From IMG/VR virus record IMGVR_UViG_3300030339_000006: a stretch of DNA of 64,000 bases. The stretch is one strand, 5' to 3'. This DNA is from a virus. The notes under the pieces are model-generated. The model was given only the letters and a program-made list of their open reading frames with translations. It searched no databases and had not been told where the DNA came from. This document shows, in pieces, positions 7-48,345 of the stretch. The position numbers were made by a program, and so were the translations under genes. Position 1 is the first letter of the stretch. Each line of letters opens with the position of its first letter.

Positions 7-807
7 ATGGTCGAGTTCTATGGCCGTTTGATACCGACCGTGAAGTACCCTGATTCCAACGACCTGGCCGTCGTGATCGATGACATCATCGTTCAGCTCG
101 GTCTGCAGGATTGGAAGGACGAGTTGATGCAACGTGCTCTGTATGACACGAAGTTTCTGGCTCAGTTAATCAACATCGAAGACGGTCCTGGCCAGCAGTT
201 GGTGGTCATTCCGTTGCACAAACTGAACGCGTACCTGTACTCTATCCGTATTCGCAAAGATGATGACCTGTGGTTCAAACAGGAAGTGATCGACGCGATG
301 ACCGGTGAAGTGAAAGAAGAGACCGTCAACCTGCGTGAAAACCTGATTCGCTATCAGGACGAATGCTCGATGGCATTGCACTCTTACTGGACCAACGGTA
401 TTGCGATTAACCCTAATGCCAACTCCCCCTTCGCGGCGCTCGGCTCGCTCTGGCGTACTGCCCGAATGAACCTGACCACTGTGATTGCTCGCTTCTCGGA
501 GTTCGCAGAAACGACCGGTGAGGACTTCCCCGAAAAGACTGTTCAGCGTGGCATCAACATCCTGCTGAAGGAATTTCTGCCGGCCCAGCTGGTGGATGAA
601 CCGGAACTGTCAAACAACGGGTATGACCTGTACCGTCTGGCTCTGGCTGAAGACTACATCGCCCGCTACCTGAATAACTGTATCGTAACCAAAGATTCAC
701 CGACGCATTGCTTCACCCAGTTGGATGCCGACATGGTCGTCGCGTTCCACTCGATTGCCTCGGGCTTGCTCGAAGCGGTAAACAACTGGAACATCCCCAC
801 TCGATAA
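7..807 (+). CDS. P22 antirepressor N-terminal (P22_AR_N)-like DNA-binding protein, possibly 5'-truncated
   Basis: VEFYG..., LGL.W, IPLHKLNAYLYSI, LIRYQDEC..ALHSYW.NGIAINP motif typical of P22_AR_N. Confidence 0.75.
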   Translation: MVEFYGRLIPTVKYPDSNDLAVVIDDIIVQLGLQDWKDELMQRALYDTKFLAQLINIEDGPGQQLVVIPLHKLNAYLYSIRIRKDDDLWFKQEVIDAMTGEVKEETVNLRENLIRYQDECSMALHSYWTNGIAINPNANSPFAALGSLWRTARMNLTTVIARFSEFAETTGEDFPEKTVQRGINILLKEFLPAQLVDEPELSNNGYDLYRLALAEDYIARYLNNCIVTKDSPTHCFTQLDADMVVAFHSIASGLLEAVNNWNIPTR

Positions 808-820
808 TCTGCGGATTACC

Positions 821-828
821 GGTATAAG
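821..828 (+). promoter_or_regulatory. GGTATAAG phage promoter motif
   Basis: One of ~14 intergenic copies located upstream of genes. Confidence 0.65.
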
Positions 829-872
829 AGACCTGAGGGACAGTTCCGTCCCTCTTATTCTTAGGAGTTATT

Positions 873-1646
873 ATGTCTACCCATTTCCTGTTAAAAGAGA
901 TCCACCGTGTAACCGTCCTCGGCACCGTAATTGAAATCCTCGGTGATGATAAAGGTCAACCAATGGTGCCGATTCGTTCACTCTGTGACGCGATCGGTAC
1001 GGTATACGGTGATGAATTCGCTCGTCTGCGTAGCGACCGCCGCCTGGGCGCCTATAGCATTCGTCTGCGTGCTGAAACGGATCCAGTGGACATCGTCTGC
1101 GTGCCGTTAACCAAACTGCATGCGTTCCTGTACACCATGAATCCGGACGCTCTGGACAGCGTGGCCCGTGCCAAACTGGAAATGTTCCAGGACGAGTGCG
1201 TTGACGTTCTGAACGATTACTGGAACAAAGGCATTGCGATTAACGATCGTGAAGAACGTGGTAGCACTGAAGGCAGCAAATTCCGTGATGCTCGTAAGCT
1301 GTCCCGCCCAGCGTTGGTCGAAGCGGTTAAGCGTCTGACGGCGTACGCAGCGACTACCGGTGTCGAACTGGATCCGGACGACGTGTATCACCACTTGATC
1401 ACTTTCTGCTGGGATCGTCTGGGCCGCAACCCGATGAAGTCCGAGTATGAAGAGATCGACACCAATACTCACGGTGCAGACTCCTACTTCCTGGCTCTGA
1501 TGGAACGTACGGCCGTCAAGTTGATCGATGTGGTTATCCAGGAAGGTTACCAGGTCAGTGATGTCATCAACTACCTCGGTGAAAACATCGACGTGGAACT
1601 GGCCAAACTGACTGAACGTGGATTCGAGCTGCTGGAAGCGAAGTAA
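873..1646 (+). CDS. P22_AR_N-like DNA-binding protein
   Basis: PMVPIRSLCDAIG, CVPLTKLHAFLYTMNP, FQDECVDVLNDYWNKGIAIN; AGGAG RBS. Confidence 0.8.
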   Translation: MSTHFLLKEIHRVTVLGTVIEILGDDKGQPMVPIRSLCDAIGTVYGDEFARLRSDRRLGAYSIRLRAETDPVDIVCVPLTKLHAFLYTMNPDALDSVARAKLEMFQDECVDVLNDYWNKGIAINDREERGSTEGSKFRDARKLSRPALVEAVKRLTAYAATTGVELDPDDVYHHLITFCWDRLGRNPMKSEYEEIDTNTHGADSYFLALMERTAVKLIDVVIQEGYQVSDVINYLGENIDVELAKLTERGFELLEAK

Positions 1647-1652
1647 CAAAAC

Positions 1653-1670
1653 GGGACCCTTCGGGGTCCC
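1653..1670 (+). terminator. hairpin GGGACCC-TTCG-GGGTCCC
   Basis: UUCG tetraloop stem just after stop. Confidence 0.55.
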
Positions 1671-1702
1671 TATCCTAACTGAATTTCTCTATTTGAGGTT
1701 GT

Positions 1703-2491
1703 ATGAAACTGATTGATTTTTATGGCGATACTCTTGAAGTCGTCGAAATGGAAGGTGGTCCCGGTGTTACTGCTCGTCGTCTGGTCGAGAACCTGGGGTT
1801 AGAATGGTCTGGTCAGTTAAAGAAACTGGAAGATCCTATCTACGCTTGTGTACATATGTACACAACTGGATCTGACGACAAGAAGTATGAAATGATGGTC
1901 ATGCCTGTGAAGTCTCTGCCGGCTTTCCTCTTCTCGATTAACCCGAAGAAAGTCCGTGAAGACCTGCGTGAGAAACTGGCCCACTATCGTCTGGAGTGTG
2001 TGGACGTGCTATACCAGTACTGGGCAAAAGGCTACGCGATTAACCCTCGGCCGACGGTAGAATCCTCCCTGGAAGACTATCTGAGCGGTACCGGTAAGGC
2101 CCACTACGCGTTCCTGGACAGCATGCTGGAGTCCGAGTGCAACGGTCCAGAGCATCGTTCCGCGATGGCGAAGGTCATTGAGCGTATTCTGAGTGAAGCA
2201 CTCGAAGTTGAAGAAGTTGATATCGAGCGTAACTTCGTGCACCGCAAGCAGGGTTGGGTCTGCATGAGTCCTGTGGAAATCACTGTGGTTCAAGCAGTCG
2301 AATCAGAGATTGGCCTGTACTTCGCCAAGAACGGCGTGCCGGCTAATGCAGAAGGTGTCATGGAAATGGGTCAGCAGGTTGGCCGTAAAGTGACAAGCCG
2401 TCTGCGTAAAGCGATGTTCATCTCTGAGACATTCTCTGAGAAGTTTGAGACGTCTTTGTTCGAGTTGCTGGGCATGAAAGAAACGGCTTGA
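1703..2491 (+). CDS. P22_AR_N-like DNA-binding protein
   Basis: IDFYGDTL, RLVENLGLEWSGQLKKL, DDKKYEM, FLFSINPKKV, YRLECVDVLYQYW. Confidence 0.85.
   Translation: MKLIDFYGDTLEVVEMEGGPGVTARRLVENLGLEWSGQLKKLEDPIYACVHMYTTGSDDKKYEMMVMPVKSLPAFLFSINPKKVREDLREKLAHYRLECVDVLYQYWAKGYAINPRPTVESSLEDYLSGTGKAHYAFLDSMLESECNGPEHRSAMAKVIERILSEALEVEEVDIERNFVHRKQGWVCMSPVEITVVQAVESEIGLYFAKNGVPANAEGVMEMGQQVGRKVTSRLRKAMFISETFSEKFETSLFELLGMKETA
1846..1865. repeat. perfect 20-bp palindrome TTGTGTACATATGTACACAA inside CDS
   Basis: Directly visible; encodes CVHMYT. Confidence 0.9.
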
Positions 2492-2902: not shown

Positions 2903-2967
2903 GGGTGGTTCCTCTTTGTTTGGGTTGAACAGATAGTATATCAAGATAAAGCCAGGCGCAAGCCTTT

Positions 2968-3657
2968 TTGGAGAATTTTATGGAAATTACTAAAATTTAT
3001 GCTGCAGTGAAAGATCTTGGGGTGGAACCGATCGTTGTTATCCCCTTGGGCGAATGCTACGGAGAGTCCTTCGGGTTCGGCCGAGTGAAGTACTCCGTCG
3101 TCTACCTGGAGTCACCAATGAAGGTGCTCTACGGTGGCGGACTGCCGAAGGCCCACTTCACGGTGGACGGGGTGGACATCAAGTTGATTCGCTACGCCGC
3201 TTTCATTCAGCATTGCCTCAGTGGCACTCAGGGTTACGCCCAGCAGTTGTTTATGAAGACCGATCACTTCAACGAGTACTGGGAGAACATCCAGGATCAC
3301 CGCGATACCTTTATGAGCTCCCGCCAGACGATCCAGGAGTCGATCAACCACATCGACCACGGCCTCATGAGCCAGACCCTCCTGCTCTCCCGCCACATCC
3401 TCCGCAAGACTGAAGCCCTCCTGCAGTTCTGGGAGACGGGCGACATCGACTTCCTCTCCCTGAAAGACTGTTTAGTCCCACCCGAAGAGATCGACGGCAT
3501 GCTGAATCTGCACCGCGGTAAGCTTCGAGAGCTGCTGCACCTGTCCGAAGAGCTCGACGTGACACGTTTCGGAACTTTGGTACTTGGGCCGTATCGCGAT
3601 ATGTTCCAAGATAAGTGCAGGCAAACCAGTGACTTACGCGATTTTGTGACATTGTGA
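2968..3657 (+). CDS. degenerate nucleotidyltransferase-like protein
   Basis: YG.S.G...Y..VY...P..VL and D...Y..FI...L.G.....Q.LF spacing resembles phage/YcgL NTases; catalytic DxD absent. Confidence 0.35.
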   Translation: MENFMEITKIYAAVKDLGVEPIVVIPLGECYGESFGFGRVKYSVVYLESPMKVLYGGGLPKAHFTVDGVDIKLIRYAAFIQHCLSGTQGYAQQLFMKTDHFNEYWENIQDHRDTFMSSRQTIQESINHIDHGLMSQTLLLSRHILRKTEALLQFWETGDIDFLSLKDCLVPPEEIDGMLNLHRGKLRELLHLSEELDVTRFGTLVLGPYRDMFQDKCRQTSDLRDFVTL

Positions 3658-4384: not shown

Positions 4385-5029
4385 ATGTCAACCTTTAAAT
4401 TACCTAACCGTCGTGCCGACTACGTGGATCTACGCACCCTCTTCGAAGAGTATGATCTGCCAGGACGCTTTCGAGATTGGATTCGCCGCCAGGTAAAACC
4501 CCTGCTGGGCACTGCAATCGTAGAGTACACCAAATCGGGTGCTCCGAGAGGCCAACAGGATTACGCTCTGGCTGAACAGAATGCTGCGGCATTGATCGCC
4601 ACTCTGCCGGCCGACAAGCGGGCTCTGAAGACCGAGCCTGCGGCTGCCGCTCCAGCGAACCCGTTCCCGAACCACTTCCGCTTCCGTATCCCGGTCCACG
4701 CGATTTCCCATAACGCGATGTACGTGCCGACGAGCTTCGGTGCTCGCAAGCAGCTGCGTCGTTCTCCGGAATACAACGAGTGGGCTGAAGTAGTATCGAG
4801 CCTGGTCCCCGCTAAGCCTCGCTGGCTGAAGAAAGGCAAAGCGTGCCACGTGGCGATTAAGTTCGGTCACACCGCACCGTTTGACACCGAGAACCTGATG
4901 AAGGGCACGATCGACACGGTCTTCACGACCTGGCGTCTGAACGACAACAACATCCGTTCCGGTTCGTTCTCCTCCGAGATCGTTCGCAGCAAAGATGATG
5001 GCTACATTGTCATTGATGTGTACCAATAA
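4385..5029 (+). CDS. AntA/AntB-type N-terminal domain fused to RusA-like Holliday junction resolvase
   Basis: VDLRTL...FRDWI...DYAL (AntA); SHNAMY, DTENLMKGTIDT, NDNNI (RusA fold). Confidence 0.65.
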   Translation: MSTFKLPNRRADYVDLRTLFEEYDLPGRFRDWIRRQVKPLLGTAIVEYTKSGAPRGQQDYALAEQNAAALIATLPADKRALKTEPAAAAPANPFPNHFRFRIPVHAISHNAMYVPTSFGARKQLRRSPEYNEWAEVVSSLVPAKPRWLKKGKACHVAIKFGHTAPFDTENLMKGTIDTVFTTWRLNDNNIRSGSFSSEIVRSKDDGYIVIDVYQ

Positions 5030-7655: not shown

Positions 7656-7743
7656 GGACCGATAGTTTAACGAGCCAGAGCTCGAAGGGAAACGCCCAGG
7701 CGCCAAATCTGGGAGGTGAGGTGAAAGTCCTCAGAGTCCGCCA
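7656..7743 (+). ncRNA. atypical tRNA-like RNA with hairpin inserted in D-loop
   Basis: GTTT/AAAC D stem enclosing CGAGC-CAGA-GCTCG, CCCAG/CTGGG arm, TGAGG/CCTCA T arm, GCCA end. Confidence 0.6.
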
Positions 7744-7746
7744 AAC

Positions 7747-7827
7747 ATACCTATCGTCTAACTAGGACGCTGCTGTAGCCGCATGTGCTTCAGGGAAATG
7801 CAGGTTAGACTCCTGCTGGGTATACCA
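7747..7827 (+). ncRNA. tRNA-like RNA with non-canonical anticodon arm
   Basis: ATACCTA/TGGGTAT acceptor, GCAGG-TTAGACT-CCTGC T arm, ACCA. Confidence 0.65.
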
Positions 7828-7829
7828 CT

Positions 7830-7980: not shown

Positions 7981-8283
7981 ATGCGTGAATGGCTTATAAA
8001 ACTCTTAGGAGGAATTGTGGACGAAAAACCTGTAAGTGAACTGACCCCGATCGTTGACTCAGCCCCGGCTGACGTACCTGCACCGGTAACGGACTTCGAT
8101 AAAGTGAAGTCAGTCCTGGTACTGATCGACGCCGGTATCGACGAAGCCTATGATGACGCTCTGGCAATCGCCCAGAAAGTCGGTGGCGACGTGCAAGGCA
8201 AGCTCAAGGTGTTCCTGAACGTAGCCGGTTATGCCGTCCCTGCGTTTGACGACATCGTGGCTTTCATCAAGAAGCACGGTTAA
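7981..8283 (+). CDS. hypothetical protein
   Basis: GGAGG RBS, followed by terminator. Confidence 0.65.
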   Translation: MREWLIKLLGGIVDEKPVSELTPIVDSAPADVPAPVTDFDKVKSVLVLIDAGIDEAYDDALAIAQKVGGDVQGKLKVFLNVAGYAVPAFDDIVAFIKKHG

Positions 8284-9768: not shown

Positions 9769-9854
9769 GCAGGAATGATGGAAAGTAGACATAGGCATCG
9801 TCGGATGTCTTGCCGGTTGGCATTGGGAGGTTAGAGTCCTCTCTTCCTGCACCA
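9769..9854 (+). ncRNA. tRNA-Leu-like RNA with anticodon loop replaced by tetraloop
   Basis: GCAGGAA/TTCCTGC, AGGCATC-GTCG-GATGTCT, TGCC/GGCA variable arm, T arm, ACCA. Confidence 0.7.
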
Positions 9855-9858
9855 CTTT

Positions 9859-9939
9859 TGAAGAAGATAGTCGGACTGGTTGCACCAGGCGGAAAATTAG
9901 CAGACATTGGGTTCGAGTCCCTACTTGCTATCTTCTTCA
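9859..9939 (+). ncRNA. long-stem RNA carrying a T-loop arm
   Basis: TGAAGAAGATAG/CTATCTTCTTCA 12-bp stem enclosing GGG-TTCGAGT-CCC. Confidence 0.55.
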
Positions 9940-9948
9940 CCTAACGAT

Positions 9949-10451: not shown

Positions 10452-10524
10452 AAGACAAGTAGCTCAACTGGTTAGAGCATAATCATACCCGATTAGTGTT
10501 GGGGGTTCGAGTCCCCCCTGTCTT
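10452..10524 (+). ncRNA. tRNA-like RNA / pseudo-tRNA with 6-nt anticodon loop, no CCA
   Basis: Canonical D arm and T arm; TAATC-ATACCC-GATTA. Confidence 0.65.
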
Positions 10525-10555
10525 AGCTTTAAAATCTCCCTATTAGGAGAACTTC

Positions 10556-15467: not shown

Positions 15468-15496
15468 TTGACAGTTTTGAGTGGGTTAGTTAAAGT
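15468..15496 (+). promoter_or_regulatory. sigma70-like promoter for tRNA cluster
   Basis: TTGACA-17-TAAAGT, inverted repeat over -10. Confidence 0.7.
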
Positions 15497-16482: not shown

Positions 16483-16559
16483 AGCGGGGTAGAGCAGTCA
16501 GGTAGCTTGCTAGGCTCATAACCTAGAGGTCGGTGGTTCAAATCCATCCCCCGCTTCCA
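16483..16559 (+). tRNA. initiator-like tRNA-Met(CAU)
   Basis: AGCGGGG start, A11-U24, CT-CAT-AA, TTCAAAT T-loop. Confidence 0.85.
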
Positions 16560-16562
16560 ATC

Positions 16563-16723
16563 GGGTAGAAGTTTCCACCGCGGCCGTGGCGTTCCGGAGC
16601 AAAACGGCGGTAGGTTCCTTAGGAGGTTCAGGAAACACTTTCAGGATTAGAGACTGAGTAGGCCGGCCGGCTGGAAGGTTGATAGACTGAGAGATCGGGG
16701 TTCGAATCCCCTTCTACTCGCCA
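16563..16723 (+). ncRNA. 161-nt tRNA-scaffold RNA with expanded D and anticodon arms
   Basis: GGGTAGA/TCTACTC acceptor, GTTTCC/GGAAAC, CTTTCAG/CTGAGAG, GGGG-TTCGAAT-CCCC, GCCA. Confidence 0.7.
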
Positions 16724-16754
16724 CACCAATGCATCCTTCCGAGGGCTCATTGGT

Positions 16755-16829
16755 GTGGTCGTATCATAATGCTAATGATCCTCCCTGTGAAGGAGGCCTA
16801 TGCGAGTTCACGCCTCGTCGACCACCCCA
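16755..16829 (+). tRNA. tRNA-His(GUG)
   Basis: CT-GTG-AA loop, C73 CCA; no encoded G-1. Confidence 0.85.
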
Positions 16830-16979
16830 AGTATCCCAGGTGATACTTTTCTTAAGGTTTCACCTCTTTTAGTAACCCCGGAGGCACTATGCGATCAGAG
16901 AGTATTGCTAAAATGATGAAGCTCGCGGAACGTATCAATGAGATCGTTGCCGAGATGGAAGTTCGTAAGGCGGCTTACC

Positions 16980-17177
16980 TTGAAACCTTACGGTCTTAAA
17001 CCCGGCGGTTCTCCCGGTTGCTCCTGTCGCGGTTGTCGTACCCGCGGGGTTCGGGAAGACCAAGTCATCCTCGTAGCGAAAGCGTTCGCTCGAAGAGAGG
17101 GTAAACGCGAAGCACGAACATGGCGGGCTGGCAGAGTGTCTATGCACTGGATTGCAAATCCAGATTACGAAGGTTAG
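16980..17177 (+). CDS. small basic Cys-containing protein (MKPYG...)
   Basis: TTG start inferred; CSCRGC, KAFARREGK; 3' end overlaps tRNA-Cys. Confidence 0.35.
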   Translation: MKPYGLKPGGSPGCSCRGCRTRGVREDQVILVAKAFARREGKREARTWRAGRVSMHWIANPDYEG

Positions 17178-20194: not shown

Positions 20195-20288
20195 TGATGT
20201 GTAGCTTAACGTAAAAGTGCTACGGAATCGGGGACTACCCCCTTTGACAATGGCGGATGTCCGGCACGTAAACCGGACCACATCACCA
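20195..20288 (+). ncRNA. tRNA-like RNA lacking canonical anticodon loop
   Basis: GATGTG/CACATC acceptor, GTCCGG/CCGGAC T-like arm, GGGG-ACTA-CCCC hairpin, ACCA. Confidence 0.6.
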
Positions 20289-20290
20289 CC

Positions 20291-35106: not shown

Positions 35107-36030
35107 ATGAACAAAGTCAGTAAAGTGAATTTCTTCGGTGAAGACATTATCGTAATCGATTGTGAAGTAAAAGTTGCGGGTAAGACTGAGCACGTGCTAG
35201 GTGTTCCTGCAAAGCGTTTAGTTGAACAGTTGGGATTGGCGTGGCCGTCACAGCATGCAAAATTGATGGATGACGAAGATAACCGTTATGGCGTATTTGA
35301 AGCTCCACTGATCTCTCCAAATGGCAAGACTTACGATTCCCTGGTGATTCCTTACACGGCACTGAATGCATTCCTGTTCAGTATCAACCGTAAGAACCTG
35401 CCGGAGAAGATGATTCAGACAGAACTGTCCGGCGGCGGGATCCGTGAGGAAACCATCAAGCAGAAAATCATCCGTTATCAGGATGAATGTCAGTTAGTGC
35501 TGCATGATTATTGGACCCACGGTGCTGCGATCAATCTGCGTTCTAACTTCGCTGACGCGGAAGCCCAGAAGAACTATGACATCCTCGAAACGTCTCGTAA
35601 GCGTTATGAGAACATGTTCAATGGCCTGGTGCAGAACATCGTTGACTCTCAGGGTAAACGTGGTGAAGACTTCGAGCGTGGCGTGATTGAGTTTGCGGGC
35701 GTACTGGAAGAGCAGGTTCTGGAAGTCATCATGACCTGTATGGGTGCGGCTGAACTGGATACTCAGGCGATGACCATCCGTAAGCCAGGGGAAGCCGGTA
35801 AGCGTTATCTGACCGGTATGGAAGCGATCTATATCAGCATTCTGCAGAACTGTTTCTGTGACTTGATCGGTCTGTTCCGTCGTAAAGAGATCGGCGACGG
35901 TCGTAACTACGAAGCCATCCTCGATGAACTGCCGAAATACTTCGACGACTATCTGAGCAACGTCAATCGAGACGTCCTGATGATGCGTAACACGTTCAAC
36001 CGTGGTCGTGGTCTGTTCGCTCCAAACTAA
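35107..36030 (+). CDS. P22_AR_N-like DNA-binding protein
   Basis: VNFFG, RLVEQLGLAWPSQHAKL, FLFSIN, RYQDEC..VLHDYW..GAAIN; promoter at 35063. Confidence 0.85.
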   Translation: MNKVSKVNFFGEDIIVIDCEVKVAGKTEHVLGVPAKRLVEQLGLAWPSQHAKLMDDEDNRYGVFEAPLISPNGKTYDSLVIPYTALNAFLFSINRKNLPEKMIQTELSGGGIREETIKQKIIRYQDECQLVLHDYWTHGAAINLRSNFADAEAQKNYDILETSRKRYENMFNGLVQNIVDSQGKRGEDFERGVIEFAGVLEEQVLEVIMTCMGAAELDTQAMTIRKPGEAGKRYLTGMEAIYISILQNCFCDLIGLFRRKEIGDGRNYEAILDELPKYFDDYLSNVNRDVLMMRNTFNRGRGLFAPN

Positions 36031-43918: not shown

Positions 43919-46207
43919 ATGCAAGATATCTACGTCACTAAACGTAATGGCCGTCGCGAACTTTCTGATTTCGCCAAGATCGCCAAGGTCATCAACTGGG
44001 CTGCTGAGTGCCTCAACGTATCCACCTCTCAAGTAGAGATGGGCGTCCGCATCCAGATGGAAGACGGTATTCCTACCCGCCAGATTCACCGTGCTGTTAT
44101 CAAAGCAGCGGCTGACTTGATCTCCGCCGACGAGCCAGACTACCAGTACATGGCAGCCCGCCTGTCCATCTTCGGCATCCGTAAAGAAGCCTTCGGCCAG
44201 TTCAATCCCCCTCCGTTCCCTCTGTTTGTTTCCAGTATGGTAGAACGCGGTAAATACGACAAAGCCATCCTCGACGATTACACCTTCGAAGAGCTGGAAG
44301 AACTCGACGAAGAGATCGACCACGATCGCGACATGCTGTACGCGTACGCGGCCACCAAACAGTTGGAAGGCAAGTATCTGGTCCAGGACCGCACGACTCA
44401 CCGTATCTTCGAGTCTCCGCAGATGGCCAACATGATGATCTCAGCGTGCATGTTCTCCCGCTACGCTAAAGACATCCGCTTGGACTACGTGAAGCGTTTC
44501 TACCACGCGATGTCCACCTTCAAGATCTCTCTGCCGACCCCGATCATGTCCGGCATGCGTACTCCGACCCGTCAGTTCTCCTCCTGTGTGGTGATCAAAG
44601 CCGGGGACTCCCTGAAGAGCATCAACGCTGCGTCTTCTGCGATCGTTGAGTACGTCTCTCAGCGTGCCGGCATTGGCCTGGATGTCTCTCATATTCGCGG
44701 CGTCGGTGCACCGATCCGTGGAGGTGAAGCTGAACACACCGGTGTTATCCCCTTCATCCGCCACTTCCAGACGGCGGTGAAATCCTGTTCCCAGGGTGGT
44801 GTCCGTGGGGGTGCGGCAACGGTGTTCTACCCAATGTGGCACTACGAGTACAAAGACCTGGTCGTCCTGAAGAATAACCGTGGTACAGAATCTTCCCGTG
44901 CTCGTCACCTGGATTACGGTGTGCAGATCAACGGGTTCCTCTACAAACGCTTGCTCGCCAAGGGTAAGATCTCCTGTTTCTCCCCAGATCAGGTCCCCGG
45001 GCTCCTCGAAGCGTTCTATGCTGACCAGGGTGAGTTCGCCCGTCTGTATGAAATCTACGAAGCCGACCCGAATATCCGCCGCAATACCTACTCCGCCATA
45101 GAAGCTTTCGGTTGGTTAGTGGCCGAGCGTGCGAGCACCGGCCGTATCTACATCCAGAACGTGGACCACTGCAACACACACTCCGCTTTCGATCCGAATC
45201 TGGCACCGATAAGCCAGTCAAATCTTTGCCTGGAAATCTGTCTGCCAACCAAAGAGTTGCGTAACGTGGACTCGCCGGAAGGGGAAATCGCTCTGTGTAC
45301 TCTGGCCGCCTTCAACCTCGGTGTGATGACTCCGGACGAAATTCCTGAGATGGCAGAACTGCTGGTCCGCGGCCTGGACGAACTGCTGGATTACCAGGAT
45401 TACCCGGTACCGGCGGCCAAGAAGGCCTCCATGCGTCGTCGTACGCTGGGTATCGGTGTGATTAACTATGCGTACTGGCTGGCCAATCAAGGCATGAAGT
45501 ACTCCGATGGTTCTGCGAATGAAGCGACGCACCGTCTGTTCGAACGTCTTCAACACGCCCTGATCTCAGCGTCCGTTACCCTGGCCGAAGAGAAAGGCGC
45601 CTGCCCAGCGTTCCACGACACGTCCTACGCCCGCGGTCTGCTCCCGATTGACACGTACAAGAAGGATCTGGACACGATCGTGTCACCTAAACTGCACCTG
45701 GACTGGGAAGCGCTTCGTGCTCGCATCAAGGCTCACGGCATGCGTAACTCTACCCTGATGGCTCTGATGCCGTCCGAGACCTCTTCGCAGATCTCCAACT
45801 CGACCAACGGTATTGAGCCGGCGAAAGGTTTGGTGACGGTGAAGGTGTCGAAAGACGGGGTGATGCGTCAGGTCGTTCCGGAAGTGACCCGCCTGCGGGA
45901 TGCCTACGAGACGCAGTGGGACATGCCGAACAACTCCGGTTACATTCAGCTGGTAGGGATTATGCAGAAGTTCGTCGACCAGGCGATCTCTGCGAACACC
46001 AACTATGACCCGGCACGCTTCCCCGGTGGCAAAGTCTCAACCGAAGTCTTGCTGCGTGATCTGATCATCGCGTACAAGTTTGGCTGGAAGACTCTGTACT
46101 ACCACAACACCCGTGACGGTTCGGACGACAAGACGTTCGAAGAGAAAGTTGAAGTAGTCCTCCCGACACCGGGTGATGACGACTGTTCGGATGGCTGCAA
46201 GATCTAA
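43919..46207 (+). CDS. nrdA: ribonucleotide reductase class Ia alpha subunit
   Basis: ATP cone, PTP, FSSC, SQGGVRGG, SNLCLEI, CTL, MPSETSS, KTLYY, C-terminal CxxxC. Confidence 0.97.
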   Translation: MQDIYVTKRNGRRELSDFAKIAKVINWAAECLNVSTSQVEMGVRIQMEDGIPTRQIHRAVIKAAADLISADEPDYQYMAARLSIFGIRKEAFGQFNPPPFPLFVSSMVERGKYDKAILDDYTFEELEELDEEIDHDRDMLYAYAATKQLEGKYLVQDRTTHRIFESPQMANMMISACMFSRYAKDIRLDYVKRFYHAMSTFKISLPTPIMSGMRTPTRQFSSCVVIKAGDSLKSINAASSAIVEYVSQRAGIGLDVSHIRGVGAPIRGGEAEHTGVIPFIRHFQTAVKSCSQGGVRGGAATVFYPMWHYEYKDLVVLKNNRGTESSRARHLDYGVQINGFLYKRLLAKGKISCFSPDQVPGLLEAFYADQGEFARLYEIYEADPNIRRNTYSAIEAFGWLVAERASTGRIYIQNVDHCNTHSAFDPNLAPISQSNLCLEICLPTKELRNVDSPEGEIALCTLAAFNLGVMTPDEIPEMAELLVRGLDELLDYQDYPVPAAKKASMRRRTLGIGVINYAYWLANQGMKYSDGSANEATHRLFERLQHALISASVTLAEEKGACPAFHDTSYARGLLPIDTYKKDLDTIVSPKLHLDWEALRARIKAHGMRNSTLMALMPSETSSQISNSTNGIEPAKGLVTVKVSKDGVMRQVVPEVTRLRDAYETQWDMPNNSGYIQLVGIMQKFVDQAISANTNYDPARFPGGKVSTEVLLRDLIIAYKFGWKTLYYHNTRDGSDDKTFEEKVEVVLPTPGDDDCSDGCKI

Positions 46208-46236
46208 TGGAGAGGGCCCTTCGGGGCCCTGTAATT

Positions 46237-46515
46237 ATGAACGTAGAAGATTGTATCCAACACGATAGACTGTCATATCGTAAAGGCGGCGAAGTCCTTC
46301 GTCGAATAAACCAGCGTGAGGCTGCCATCGTGGCCCAGGATGATAACTCGGTCACCCTACGCCTTAATGGACATCTCGGAGTGGTAGTCACGGAGTCCGG
46401 AGATGGTGTATCATATCGCTTCATTAATCTGAAGACCAAACAACTGAGCCATGTTTTCCACAACCAGGCTCTACTAGCATTGAACTACAAACGAGGAACC
46501 TACAATGCCCTTTAA
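46237..46515 (+). CDS. hypothetical protein between nrdA and nrdB
   Basis: ORF after terminator-like hairpin. Confidence 0.45.
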   Translation: MNVEDCIQHDRLSYRKGGEVLRRINQREAAIVAQDDNSVTLRLNGHLGVVVTESGDGVSYRFINLKTKQLSHVFHNQALLALNYKRGTYNAL

Positions 46516-47134
46516 TAAATACCACCAGATCGTCGACGACGCGTTCAGCTATCCGTACATGAACGATGCCCACGTTACCCGTGCCGGCTTGCTCCTGGGG
46601 ACGATCGATAAGTCTAAGCCGGTACCGCTGAGCAAAGCGTTCGTGGACCGTCTGCTTCGTGTCGAGCCGAAGAGCGAAGGCGTGGACATGGTGAAACTCC
46701 GTGAGCTCGGCCCGGTAGTGCTGCAGCTCGATGGCGTCAGCGATGAAGGCCCGCGTTTCATCATCAGTATCCTCGTGGTTCCAATGGACGAGAAGGAGCA
46801 GATTCACTGCTACCCTTACTCCAACAACAACCCGGAAGAGAAGATGTGGCCGTATGATAAGCACTTCGTCATCTCTAACCTGACCCCGCTGGCAGACATC
46901 CAGGTTTCCGCCCGTGAGACACACCCACTGGCCGGCGCCGAAGGCCTGGACCCTATCGGTGTTGATCACATGACTGCCATGACCACGATCGTGCTGAAGT
47001 TCGTCATCGGTCTGCAGCAGGGTGACATCGAGTTAGTCCCGGACACCACGGACTACTCCAAGCTGAACGCCAAGCGTGCAAAGAGCAAAAAGGCCCCGAT
47101 CAAGGGTGATTATCTTCCAGTATTCGTAGGTTAA
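46505..47134 (+). CDS. hypothetical protein
   Basis: GAGG RBS; C-terminal LNAKR.KS.K.PI. Confidence 0.7.
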   Translation: MPFNKYHQIVDDAFSYPYMNDAHVTRAGLLLGTIDKSKPVPLSKAFVDRLLRVEPKSEGVDMVKLRELGPVVLQLDGVSDEGPRFIISILVVPMDEKEQIHCYPYSNNNPEEKMWPYDKHFVISNLTPLADIQVSARETHPLAGAEGLDPIGVDHMTAMTTIVLKFVIGLQQGDIELVPDTTDYSKLNAKRAKSKKAPIKGDYLPVFVG

Positions 47135-47136
47135 CC

Positions 47137-48345
47137 ATGAGCTTCTCTATCTTCTCTCAAGACCAAACCGACTACCTGGAACAGAGCATGTTCTTCGGTA
47201 AAGGGCTGAACGTCTCTCGCTTCGATGAACTGAAGTATCCGTTCATTGACAGCAACCTGACGGACCAGCAGCTGGCGTTCTTCTGGCGTCCGGAGGAGAT
47301 TGACATCTCCAAGGACCGTATCGATTACAACGAACGTCTGCCACAACATGAAAAGCACATCTTTACCAGTAACCTGAAGTACCAGACCCTGCTAGATTCC
47401 TGTCAGGGCCGCGGTATCGAACAGGCCTTCGGGAAGATCGTGTCGATACCGGAACTGGAGAACTGGTTCCTGACCTGGGCGTTCTCTGAAACGATCCACT
47501 CGCGTTCATACACGCACATCATCCGTAACCTCTTGGCCAACCCCGGCGAGATCTTCGATGATATCGTGTTGAACCCGGAGATCACCGGGCGTGCCATTAA
47601 CCTGACGGGGAACTACGACCGCTTCATCAAGTCGGTCGATCTGCACTCCCTGTTCGGTGAAGGTCACTTCGAAATCTCTAAGAAATCCCCGGGCGGTATC
47701 CTTCTGCCACAGGGCTTCGAAGACATTCAGCGTGGTCCGGATCAGATGCAACTCGTTGAGAAATTCGACGTGAGCATGCCACAGATGATGGAAGACGCGT
47801 TCTACCTGCTGGGTGACATCAACTGCCTGGAGGCTCTCCGCTTCTACGTGTCCTTCGCGTGTTCCTTCGCCTTCGCGGAACGTGAGCTGATGGAAGGGAA
47901 TGCCAAGGTGATTAAGTTCATCTGTCGCGATGAATCCCTGCATAAAGTCGGCACGACCTACTTGATCAACAAGCTATCGGATGGCTCTGAGGGTCAGGAG
48001 TGGGCTAAGATCGGGCGTCGCACTAAGCTGCGTTTCCCCGAGCTGGTCCGCAGTGTGGTCGATCAGGAGAAATCCTGGGCGAAGTACCTCTTCAAAGACG
48101 GGGCGATGCCGGGCATCAACCTGGAGAGCATGGGCCACTACATGGAATACCTGGCTGACGTCCTCCTGGATCAGATGGGTATTGCTCCACTGTACGGCCG
48201 TAAGCGTAATCCATACCCGTGGATGACCACTTACACCAACTCGGAGAACGTCCAACCTGCTCCGCAGGAAGTGGAGATCTCTGCCTACCGAACTGCCGAC
48301 CTGAGCTCTGACAGCACAGGCCTGCTTGACGACCTATCTCTCTAA
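47137..48345 (+). CDS. nrdB: ribonucleotide reductase class Ia beta subunit
   Basis: FFWRPEE, LLDS, ETIHSRSY, EALRFYVSF, RDESLH, APQEVEI.AY. Confidence 0.97.
   Translation: MSFSIFSQDQTDYLEQSMFFGKGLNVSRFDELKYPFIDSNLTDQQLAFFWRPEEIDISKDRIDYNERLPQHEKHIFTSNLKYQTLLDSCQGRGIEQAFGKIVSIPELENWFLTWAFSETIHSRSYTHIIRNLLANPGEIFDDIVLNPEITGRAINLTGNYDRFIKSVDLHSLFGEGHFEISKKSPGGILLPQGFEDIQRGPDQMQLVEKFDVSMPQMMEDAFYLLGDINCLEALRFYVSFACSFAFAERELMEGNAKVIKFICRDESLHKVGTTYLINKLSDGSEGQEWAKIGRRTKLRFPELVRSVVDQEKSWAKYLFKDGAMPGINLESMGHYMEYLADVLLDQMGIAPLYGRKRNPYPWMTTYTNSENVQPAPQEVEISAYRTADLSSDSTGLLDDLSL

What the first reader, a model, noticed from the sequence alone, without database searches (positions are those of the whole stretch)
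16563..16723. Giant 161-nt tRNA scaffold with large inserts in both D and anticodon arms
All four tRNA helices are present in order: acceptor, GTTTCC/GGAAAC, CTTTCAG/CTGAGAG, and a canonical T arm with GCCA. There is a ~54-nt structured insert in the D-loop and a ~43-nt insert at the anticodon position. It lacks tmRNA identity (no G3-U70, G73) and is too short for tmRNA or a group I intron. Candidate new ncRNA class, using a tRNA scaffold to display aptamer-like domains.
Basis: partly seen in the sequence, partly recalled or inferred. Interest (0 to 1): 0.75.

Follow-up and report, generated by a model that had tools for sequence, protein, structure and literature searches.

The report
Conserved 161-nt tRNA-shaped phage RNA
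A soil phage carries, inside its tRNA gene array, a conserved 161-base RNA gene that has the ends and elbow of a tRNA but two long folded arms instead of a D-loop and an anticodon loop, so it cannot read codons; it is a new family of the long-known but still unexplained "tRNA-like stable RNAs" of phages T4 and T5.

Summary
It has an 8-bp acceptor stem and a 6-bp GUUUCC/GGAAAC stem enclosing 54 nt. A 7-bp CUUUCAG/CUGAGAG stem encloses 42 nt. A 4-bp T stem carries a UUCGAAU loop, followed by G73 and an encoded CCA.

Folding energy alone is not significant (z -0.94). The support comes from a 71%-identical homologue of exactly 161 nt at the same place in another phage contig (L009). It keeps every helix, with 14 base pairs changed on both sides, against 0-2 in slid controls. 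A near-identical strain carries a further compensatory C-G to U-A change.

No apical loop has seven bases and none of them has an anticodon-loop form. Rfam and ARAGORN call nothing. tmRNA features are absent, and the discriminator base varies (G or C).

The element is therefore a real, selected, non-decoding tRNA-shaped RNA in a tRNA operon. Its closest known kind is T4 species 1 RNA (rnaC) and T5 RNA1/RNA2, whose functions are unknown. It shows no sequence or model homology to them. The "new class" claim is only partly right.

I found four DNA copies plus two strain variants. Several close relatives lack the element. Expression is untested. This scan has noted similar insert-bearing tRNA-shaped phage RNAs on other DNA.

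The parts
16483..16559 (+). tRNA-Met(CAT) number 2, ending in an encoded CCA 3 nt before the element. It is the upstream neighbour in the same operon.
   Evidence: ARAGORN; Rfam tRNA 64.6 bits
16563..16570 (+). Acceptor stem, 5' strand (GGGUAGAA). It pairs with 16712-16719, with a G2.U71 wobble in this copy.
   Evidence: 8 pairs, all cells paired, 2 pairs changed on both sides in L009; U71 to C in L003 makes G-C
16571..16576 (+). D-like stem, 5' strand (GUUUCC). It pairs with 16631-16636 and follows the acceptor stem without any linker nucleotide.
   Evidence: 6 pairs, 3 changed on both sides in L009; C16575T + G16632A in strain X18
16577..16615 (+). Long 5' arm inserted where the D-loop would be. 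It has a stem ACCGC.GCCGU/ACGGC.GU.GGU, conserved GG (16588-89) opposite AA (16602-03), a 3-bp stem 16591-93/16598-600, and an invariant CCGG tetraloop 16594-97.
   Evidence: helices 3 and 4: one flip G-C to C-G, two double changes in the apical stem; UCCGGA is invariant between window and L009
16616..16630 (+). Weak small hairpin (UCC-UUA-GGA) and the single strand GGUUCA that leads back into the D-like stem. UUCA is conserved.
   Evidence: helix 5 only 83% paired, so uncertain; UUCAG is invariant
16631..16636 (+). D-like stem, 3' strand (GGAAAC).
16638..16644 (+). Anticodon-like stem, 5' strand (CUUUCAG). It pairs with 16687-16693.
   Evidence: helix 6; the pair 16640:16691 is seen as U.G, U-A and C-G in different copies
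16645..16686 (+). 42-nt continuation of that arm in place of an anticodon loop. It has internal loops (GA/GA; AGUA 16657-60 opposite GGAA 16673-76) and an apical GGCC-GGCC-GGCU hairpin (16661-16672).
   Evidence: 5 pairs of helix 6 changed on both sides; AGUAGGCCGGCC is invariant between window and L009
16687..16693 (+). Anticodon-like stem, 3' strand (CUGAGAG).
16697..16711 (+). T arm: a 4-bp stem GGGG/CCCC with the canonical loop UUCGAAU.
   Evidence: it is the only part that resembles other tRNAs
16712..16723 (+). Acceptor stem 3' strand (UUCUACUC), discriminator G16720 and encoded CCA.
   Evidence: the discriminator is C in L009, and the base before position 1 changes from C to G with it
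16724..16754 (+). Conserved hairpin spacer (CACCAAUG...CAUUGGUG) between the element and tRNA-His. It is also present in relatives that lack the element, so it belongs to the tRNA-His leader rather than to the element.
   Evidence: 81% identical to L009
16755..16829 (+). tRNA-His(GTG), the downstream neighbour.
15468..15496 (+). Nearest upstream sigma-70-like promoter match (TTGACA-17-TAAAGT). No terminator-like site lies between it and the element.
   Evidence: a consensus match only

Best explanation
The element is a gene for a non-decoding, tRNA-shaped stable RNA that belongs to the phage's tRNA operon.

Shown:
- It lies 3 nt after one tRNA and 31 nt before the next, on the same strand.
- It keeps a 12-bp acceptor/T branch in the 8/4 arrangement, a canonical T loop and an encoded CCA.
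- All its helices are maintained by compensatory change.
- It has no anticodon loop.

Inferred:
- It is transcribed with the neighbouring tRNAs and released by the tRNA-processing machinery: RNase P at its 5' end, and trimming to the CCA at its 3' end. This is how T4 species I RNA is cut from the T4 tRNA precursor.
- The tRNA body gives it stability and an L-shaped frame.
- The two conserved rigid arms are the working surface. They carry the CCGG and GGCC tetraloops, GG/AA and GA/GA internal loops, and an AGUA/GAA-like loop. Most probably they bind and hold a protein of the host or the phage, acting as a decoy or scaffold rather than taking part in decoding.
- Because the discriminator base is not conserved, I consider aminoacylation unlikely.
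For: - Position and strand in the tRNA array come. A promoter-like site lies upstream and no terminator-like site lies between.
- The fold was obtained and, independently for L009.
- Covariation: 14 pairs changed on both sides, 96.6% of cells paired, controls 0-2. Of 23 pairs touched in L009, 20 stay paired. Compensatory C16575T/G16632A occurs in a 97%-identical strain.
- The length is exactly 161 nt in all four copies despite 29% divergence. Identity of 71% lies within the range of the neighbouring true tRNAs, 59-91%.
- Non-decoding status: the apical loops are CCGG, GGCC and a weak 3-nt loop, and the only 7-nt loop is the T loop. There is no tRNA call from ARAGORN or Rfam, even with introns allowed.
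- Precedent: T4 rnaC and T5 RNA1/RNA2 have the same general build and sit in tRNA clusters. T4 species I and II RNAs come from the same primary transcript as the tRNAs (PMC2330249). Their roles are unknown (PMC3014915, PMC9697503).
- The 8/4 frame occurs in phage tRNAs (PMC5389517).
Against: - There is no expression or processing evidence of any kind.
- Only two well-separated lineages are known, so covariation rests mainly on one divergent sequence and a model-fitted alignment.
- Folding energy is not better than shuffled sequence.
- Close relatives lack the element at the same spot, so it is dispensable: Arash, L004, L005, L010 and L013, and no match to the model in the further related loci L155-L163.
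- No partner protein is indicated. No nearby ORF shares its presence/absence pattern.
- The motif readings (tandem G.A, AGUA/GAA) are by eye, and the 3' strand of the latter varies (GGAA, AAAA, GAAA).
Confidence: 0.55

Rival explanations
1. It is a decoy for host defence or toxin enzymes that act on the acceptor end or elbow of tRNAs, such as enzymes that modify or extend the 3' CCA end. The phage floods the cell with a harmless CCA-ended look-alike. This is a specific version of the best explanation in which the tRNA body, not the arms, is the working part.
For: The acceptor stem, T arm and CCA are the most tRNA-like and best-kept parts. The phage carries several other CCA-ended tRNA look-alikes and other translation-rescue genes according to earlier notes.
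Against: It does not explain why the two long arms are conserved in sequence and length. No defence system or target is identified. This rests on general knowledge of tRNA-targeting toxins, not on a test here.
Confidence: 0.15
2. It is a cis-acting part of the tRNA precursor: a structured spacer that guides or times the processing of neighbouring tRNAs (Met and His). It has no life of its own after cleavage.
For: It is tightly packed between two tRNAs. tRNA-like shapes are RNase P substrates (established knowledge).
Against: Relatives mature the same tRNAs without it, with 33-60 nt spacers. An encoded CCA and a conserved 161-nt body with invariant loops are more than a spacer needs.
Confidence: 0.1
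3. It is a decaying pseudo-tRNA that acquired insertions and has no function.
For: Patchy distribution among close relatives. Weak resemblance to tRNA-Asp in the covariance search (21-22 bits). Ordinary folding energy.
Against: 14 compensatory pairs, identical length at 71% identity, invariant loop sequences and a retained CCA.
Confidence: 0.07
4. It is a miniature tmRNA-like or otherwise aminoacylated RNA that enters stalled ribosomes, fitting the phage's ArfA-like and peptidyl-tRNA-hydrolase-like genes.
For: It has a CCA end and an acceptor/T minihelix. Rescue-related genes lie in the same genome (earlier notes).
Against: There is no G3.U70: the wobble is at 2:71 in the window and becomes G-C or A-U in other copies. 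The discriminator is G or C. ARAGORN finds no tmRNA or tag frame and Rfam finds no match at E up to 10. There is no P2-type helix enclosing an mRNA-like part.
Confidence: 0.05
5. It is a tRNA gene interrupted by two intervening sequences that are removed to give a decoding tRNA, for example the Val or Phe tRNA missing from this window.
For: The inserts sit at the D-loop and the anticodon-loop positions. No Val or Phe tRNA was found in the window.
Against: No choice of excision leaves a U33-containing 7-nt loop (sequence). ARAGORN with introns finds only a nonsensical low-score model. There is no group I or II intron match. The inserts themselves covary as helices. No bacterial mechanism is known for removing two short inserts (established knowledge).
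Confidence: 0.03

Closest known systems
Phage T4 species 1 RNA (rnaC, 139 nt; NC_000866 70908-71046) and species 2 RNA (rnaD)
   Same: It is encoded at the end of a phage tRNA cluster and cut from the same precursor as the tRNAs (PMC2330249). rnaC has an acceptor-like terminal stem, a canonical T arm (CCGGG-UUCGAAU-CCCGG), a long hairpin where the D arm would be and a second hairpin without a 7-nt anticodon loop. Its function is unknown (PMC3014915, PMC9697503).
   Different: There is no sequence or covariance-model similarity (R1/R2 found nothing in the T4 region). In T4 rnaC the CCA is not encoded and the terminal stem has two U.U mismatches. Here the frame is 8/4 with an encoded CCA, and both arms are longer and branched.
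Phage T5 RNA1 (T5s03, 144 nt) and RNA2 (T5s06, 125 nt), annotated 'tRNA-like stable RNA with unknown functions'
   Same: They lie inside the tRNA gene region and have a tRNA frame with a large insert in the anticodon region.
   Different: The T5 RNAs keep a normal-looking D arm, whereas here the D-loop is also replaced. There is no model match.
(8/4) tRNAs / allo-tRNAs (Mukai et al. 2017, PMC5389517)
   Same: They have a 12-bp acceptor branch split 8/4 instead of 7/5, and are reported in phage tRNA clusters and soil/peat samples. Some are suggested to be regulatory non-coding RNAs.
   Different: Those RNAs have anticodon arms and mostly a long variable arm. This element has no anticodon loop and only a 2-3 nt variable region.
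tmRNA (Rfam RF00023)
   Same: Its tRNA-like ends (acceptor stem, T arm, CCA) enclose non-tRNA sequence.
   Different: This element has no G3.U70, no tag reading frame, no pseudoknots and no Rfam or ARAGORN match. It is half the size of the smallest tmRNAs.
YrlA (Y RNA-like A, Rfam RF02553)
   Same: It is a bacterial and phage non-coding RNA that contains a tRNA-like module.
   Different: In YrlA the RNA ends form the Ro60-binding stem rather than an acceptor stem with CCA. There was no Rfam match here.

Membership tests
tRNA (Rfam RF00005) | Scores above the family threshold and is called by tRNA finders | tested here: not met
   No RF00005 match over 16563-16723 at gathering score or at E up to 10. 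ARAGORN makes no call.
tRNA (Rfam RF00005) | Anticodon arm with a 7-nt loop (U33, anticodon 34-36) | tested here: not met
   The arm continues for 42 nt and ends in a GGCC tetraloop. The other apical loops are CCGG and a weak triloop.
tRNA (Rfam RF00005) | Acceptor stem plus T arm with GTTCGAATC-type loop and a 3' CCA | tested here: met
   (8/4 split, 12 bp in all).
tmRNA | G3.U70 alanine identity pair | tested here: not met
   Pair 3:70 is G-C in all copies. The wobble at 2:71 is not conserved.
tmRNA | Tag reading frame with resume codon and pseudoknots, detectable by ARAGORN or Rfam | tested here: not met
Phage tRNA-like stable RNAs (T4 rnaC; T5 RNA1/RNA2), a descriptive kind rather than a curated family | Encoded within a phage tRNA gene cluster, on the same strand | tested here: met
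Phage tRNA-like stable RNAs (T4 rnaC; T5 RNA1/RNA2), a descriptive kind rather than a curated family | tRNA-like terminal stem and T arm, with other arms replaced or expanded so that decoding is impossible | tested here: met
Phage tRNA-like stable RNAs (T4 rnaC; T5 RNA1/RNA2), a descriptive kind rather than a curated family | Common descent, or shared sequence/structure profile, with T4 rnaC or T5 RNA1/RNA2 | tested here: not met
   Models R1 and R2 give no match in the T4 (L008) or T5 (L154) tRNA regions beyond ordinary tRNAs. blastn against 50,697 phage records gives no match.
Phage tRNA-like stable RNAs (T4 rnaC; T5 RNA1/RNA2), a descriptive kind rather than a curated family | Accumulates as a stable processed RNA during infection | not testable with these tools
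   No RNA run holds the sequence. This needs a northern blot or small-RNA sequencing.
(8/4) allo-tRNA | 12-bp acceptor branch split 8/4 | tested here: met
   A8-U150 is invariant. A fifth T-stem pair is impossible (C.U here, and the base is deleted in L009).
(8/4) allo-tRNA | Anticodon arm and (usually) a long variable arm; aminoacylation | tested here: not met
   There is no anticodon loop and the variable region is 2-3 nt. Charging is not testable here.
tRNA interrupted by a group I intron | Intron core detectable; insert of about 200 nt or more | tested here: not met
   No intron family in Rfam scans. The inserts are 54 and 42 nt.
YrlA / Y RNA-like | Match to RF02553, with a Ro60-binding terminal stem | tested here: not met
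   No match. The termini form an acceptor stem with CCA.

The most novel reading that the evidence does not exclude
The tRNA body is only a chassis. It gets the RNA made, cut out and stabilised by the host's tRNA machinery. The two invariant arms are a dedicated binding surface that captures a specific host translation or defence factor. These arms carry the CCGG and GGCC tetraloops, G.A-rich internal loops and an rRNA-style AGUA/GAA loop. If this is right, this RNA and the other insert-bearing tRNA-shaped phage RNAs form a general class of phage 'display' RNAs. A side possibility is that the covarying -1:73 pair gives a 9/4, discriminator-less end like tRNA-Sec or tRNA-His, which would steer the RNA away from EF-Tu.
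Probability: 0.22. Interest if true: 0.75.

Novelty: new variant of a known kind. Interest (0 to 1): 0.5.

Why it matters
T4 species 1 RNA and the T5 tRNA-like RNAs have lacked a function for about fifty years, and they have no Rfam family. Each independent family that shows the same design makes it harder to dismiss these RNAs as debris. That design is tRNA ends and elbow kept, decoding parts replaced by conserved arms, all under clear structural selection. Each such family also offers another handle for experiments such as pull-downs and defence-system screens. This one is compact and has a clean four-way junction. It also has natural presence/absence relatives, which suits comparative tests. 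If the arms bind a host factor, that would be a new way for phages to use the tRNA-processing pathway.

Tried and rejected
- **Expression:** no RNA holder was listed among public runs, so expression could not be examined. The contigs laid were all DNA.
- **Metagenome scan:** the pattern CACCGCGGCC..GGCGGTAGG returned only chance matches in GC-rich coding DNA and none matched the model. The single metagenome scan was therefore wasted.
- **IMG/VR:** exact or gapped patterns from the element gave nothing. Pattern AGTAGGCC..GGGGTTCGAATCC gave 16 loci that are not homologues.
- **Other collections:** GTDB genomes gave 0. blastn gave no match against phage isolates or E. coli genomes, which include rRNA.
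- **Neighbouring structural protein:** used as bait in IMG/VR, it found no relatives. DUF7768 bait in IMG/VR gave only distant phages without the element.
- **Twelve contig look-ups:** these yielded three further copies only.
- **MAFFT alignment with flanks:** it misplaces one gap, so the 6-bp stem's 3' strand is shifted. I did not use it for pair counts.
- **Antisense target:** the best match is a 12-nt stretch in a non-conserved part. Rejected.
- **Shine-Dalgarno reading of AGGAGG at 16621-16626:** it is not conserved (CGGUGG, GGGUAG in other copies). Rejected.
- **Alternative inner acceptor strand GAGUAGG (16656-62):** L003's U71 to C change favours the outer stem. Rejected.
- **Sarcin-ricin or loop-E mimicry:** kept only as a weak lead, because the 3' strand varies.
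- **Co-occurring partner gene:** none found within about 4 kb.
- **Pfam on 30 window ORFs:** found no tRNA-handling enzyme apart from those noted earlier.

Full report
**What is there**

The window is part of a large uncultured phage, and no cellular genome is held for it. According to earlier notes the phage is about 176 kb, comes from peat and is distantly related to Salmonella phage Arash. My own blastn also found Arash as the only record with extended similarity. ARAGORN finds 24 tRNA genes on the + strand.

The stretch 16563-16723 begins 3 nt after the encoded CCA of the second tRNA-Met (16483-16559). A 31-nt hairpin follows it, and then tRNA-His (16755-16829). A promoter-like site lies upstream at 15468-15496. 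No terminator-like site intervenes. The element is therefore most simply part of a tRNA operon.

**Check of the observation**

- an 8-bp acceptor stem with a G2.U71 wobble;
- immediately after it, a 6-bp stem GUUUCC/GGAAAC that encloses 54 nt;
- one linker base;
- a 7-bp stem CUUUCAG/CUGAGAG that encloses 42 nt;
- three bases, then a 4-bp T stem with loop UUCGAAU;
- G73 and CCA.

The acceptor/T branch is 8/4, not 7/5. A8-U150 is invariant and a fifth T-stem pair cannot form.

The energy is unremarkable: z = -0.94 for this copy and +0.78 for the L009 copy. The fold alone would therefore prove nothing.

**Related copies and covariation**

I used the neighbouring DUF7768 protein as bait and fetched contigs of related phages.
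- The element is present at the same spot in L002 (96% identical) and L003 (94%).
- A covariance model found a much more diverged copy in L009 (107 bits; 153 bits after rebuilding). It is also exactly 161 nt and also lies between the second tRNA-Met and tRNA-His.
- Window and L009 copies are 71% identical, which is within the range of the flanking true tRNAs (59-91%).

On the four-sequence alignment 96.6% of cells form standard pairs. Fourteen pairs change on both sides while staying paired. The counts are 0-2 when every 3' partner is slid by 1-3 columns, and none of 500 shuffles reaches the observed values. Each of the acceptor stem, the 6-bp stem and the anticodon-like arm has at least two such pairs. 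The T stem has a G-C to G.U change.

Of 23 pairs touched by L009's 51 differing columns, 14 are compensated, 6 keep pairing through one change and 3 break. The alignment was fitted to the model, which favours the structure. However, L009 folded alone returns the same four-way junction.

Contigs from other metagenomes add micro-variation. One strain carries C16575T together with G16632A, turning C-G into U-A in the 6-bp stem. It also carries U16640C, which turns U.G into C-G. Pair 16640:16691 is thus seen as U.G, U-A and C-G across copies. The structure is real and under selection.

**Anatomy of the inserts**

RNAalifold and the pair counts refine the 5' arm. A 10-pair stem (16577-16587/16604-16615) is followed by conserved GG opposite AA. 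Next comes a 3-bp stem with two compensatory changes, capped by an invariant CCGG tetraloop (UCCGGA is invariant). A weak small hairpin and the conserved single strand UUCA lead back to the 6-bp stem.

The 3' arm is one long irregular hairpin. It has GA/GA and AGUA/GGAA internal loops and an apical GGCC-GGCC-GGCY hairpin. AGUAGGCCGGCC is invariant.

The AGUA/GAA arrangement recalls loop-E or sarcin-ricin modules. Its 3' strand varies (GGAA, AAAA, GAAA), so I treat that only as a lead. The only 7-nt loop is the T loop.

**What it is not**

- **Not a decoding tRNA.** There is no anticodon loop, no Rfam tRNA match even at E up to 10, and no ARAGORN call. With introns allowed, ARAGORN gives only a nonsensical model.
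- **Not an intron-bearing tRNA.** There is no intron family match, the inserts are short, and the inserts themselves covary as helices.
- **Not a tmRNA.** Pair 3:70 is G-C. The wobble at 2:71 becomes G-C or A-U in other copies. No tag frame or pseudoknot is found.
- **Probably not charged.** The discriminator is G in three copies and C in L009, which argues against a conserved charging identity. The base before position 1 changes from C to G with it, so a -1:73 pair is possible in all copies. This is one event only, and I record it as unexplained.
- **Not an antisense RNA against anything in the window**.
- **No detectable mimicry.** There is no detectable sequence match in E. coli genome records, which include the rRNA operons. 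No rRNA, SRP or YrlA family matched in the Rfam scans.

**Distribution**

Arash, L004, L005, L010 and L013 lack the element at the same place, with 33-60 nt spacers or a different gene. The model also found no copy in the further related loci L155-L163.

It was not found in the following searches:
- 50,697 phage isolates by blastn;
- IMG/VR by exact or gapped patterns;
- GTDB genomes by pattern.

The same phage or near-identical strains occur in peat, plant, air and biofilm metagenomes. The element is therefore an accessory gene of a narrow clade. No nearby ORF shares its presence/absence pattern.

**Comparison with what is known**

The T4 tRNA cluster ends with two small stable RNAs, rnaD and rnaC. 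rnaC (139 nt) has:
- an acceptor-like terminal stem (CGAUUCG/CGUUUCG, with two U.U mismatches);
- a canonical T arm;
- a long hairpin of about 60 nt in the D-arm position;
- an 8-bp hairpin with a 6-nt loop in the anticodon position.

T4 species I and II RNAs are cut from the same primary transcript of about 1.75 kb as the eight tRNAs (PMC2330249). Their roles are unknown (PMC3014915; still 'of yet unknown functions' in PMC9697503).

T5 annotates RNA1 (144 nt) and RNA2 (125 nt) as 'tRNA-like stable RNA with unknown functions'. Their folds show a tRNA frame with an expanded anticodon region. None of these has an Rfam family.

The 8/4 frame itself has been described for phage tRNAs and for soil/peat 'allo-tRNAs', some of which were suggested to be regulatory RNAs (PMC5389517).

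The present element works like these RNAs as far as anatomy and context go. It shares no detectable sequence or profile with them. It differs in replacing both the D-loop and the anticodon loop, in the 8/4 frame without a linker, and in the encoded CCA.

Earlier notes of this scan describe comparable insert-bearing tRNA-shaped RNAs in other phages. The design therefore recurs.

**Most likely mechanism**

- Shown: gene position, fold, selection on the fold, and loss of decoding parts.
- Inferred from T4 and from general tRNA biology: co-transcription with the tRNAs, release by RNase P and 3' trimming to CCA, and stabilisation by the tRNA-like body.
- Inferred from the invariant loops and arm lengths: the arms are the functional surface, most plausibly a protein-binding decoy or scaffold.

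I put about 0.55 on this overall picture and much less on any particular partner.

The rivals are:
- an acceptor-end decoy (0.15);
- a cis-acting processing element (0.10);
- a decaying pseudogene (0.07);
- a tmRNA-like charged RNA (0.05);
- a spliced tRNA (0.03).

**Verdict**

This is a new sequence family and a new layout of a known but unexplained kind of phage RNA. Interest is moderate. It is not categorically new, but it is a clean, well-supported example with natural presence/absence relatives, and it bears on a fifty-year-old open question.

Noticed in passing
window 7656-7745, 7747-7829, 9769-9855, 9861-9940, 20195-20290: Five further CCA- or CC-ended tRNA-like stretches sit between true tRNAs. 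Each has an acceptor-type stem and a T-like arm but no ARAGORN or Rfam call. None matches the model of the 161-nt element, so they are separate families.
   Followed up: partly
window 16724-16754; L009 2387-2417; L001 (Arash) about 4871-4903: A conserved hairpin (CACCRAUG...CAUYGGUG) directly precedes tRNA-His. It is 81% identical between window and L009 and is present even where the 161-nt element is absent. It may be a leader structure tied to tRNA-His 5' processing.
   Followed up: no
window about 16978-17100 (+); L001 5074-5200; L004 3546-3700: A small conserved Cys-rich ORF (M-K-P-Y-G-L-K-x-G-G-x-P-G-C-x-C...) lies between tRNA-His and tRNA-Cys in this phage, Arash and L004. Its function is unknown.
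   Followed up: no
window 16562 and 16720 versus L009 2225 and 2383: The base just before the element and the discriminator base change together (C/G here, G/C in L009). A ninth acceptor pair, as in tRNA-His, is therefore possible. This rests on one event only.
   Followed up: partly
L001 (Salmonella phage Arash) 4386-4465: An unannotated CCA-ended tRNA-like stretch (GGGGCGG...CUCCACCA) lies in the Arash tRNA region. Several Arash tRNAs called by ARAGORN (Gly, second Met, His) are missing from the deposited annotation, and the 'tRNA-Phe' at 7987-8058 reads as a CTA suppressor.
   Followed up: no
window 10452-10525: ARAGORN calls a tRNA with an undetermined two-base 'anticodon' (ac), and Rfam gives tRNA 38 bits. 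It has an odd anticodon loop and no CCA.
   Followed up: no
window 7-2491, 35107-36030: Four ORFs carry P22 antirepressor N-terminal domains (three in tandem at 7-2491). A ribonucleotide reductase pair lies at 43919-48345.
   Followed up: no
L008 (T4) 2909-3047 minus strand: The terminal stem of T4 rnaC can be drawn as 7 bp (CGAUUCG/CGUUUCG) with two central U.U mismatches next to a perfect T arm. Rfam holds no family for rnaC, rnaD or the T5 stable RNAs.
   Followed up: partly
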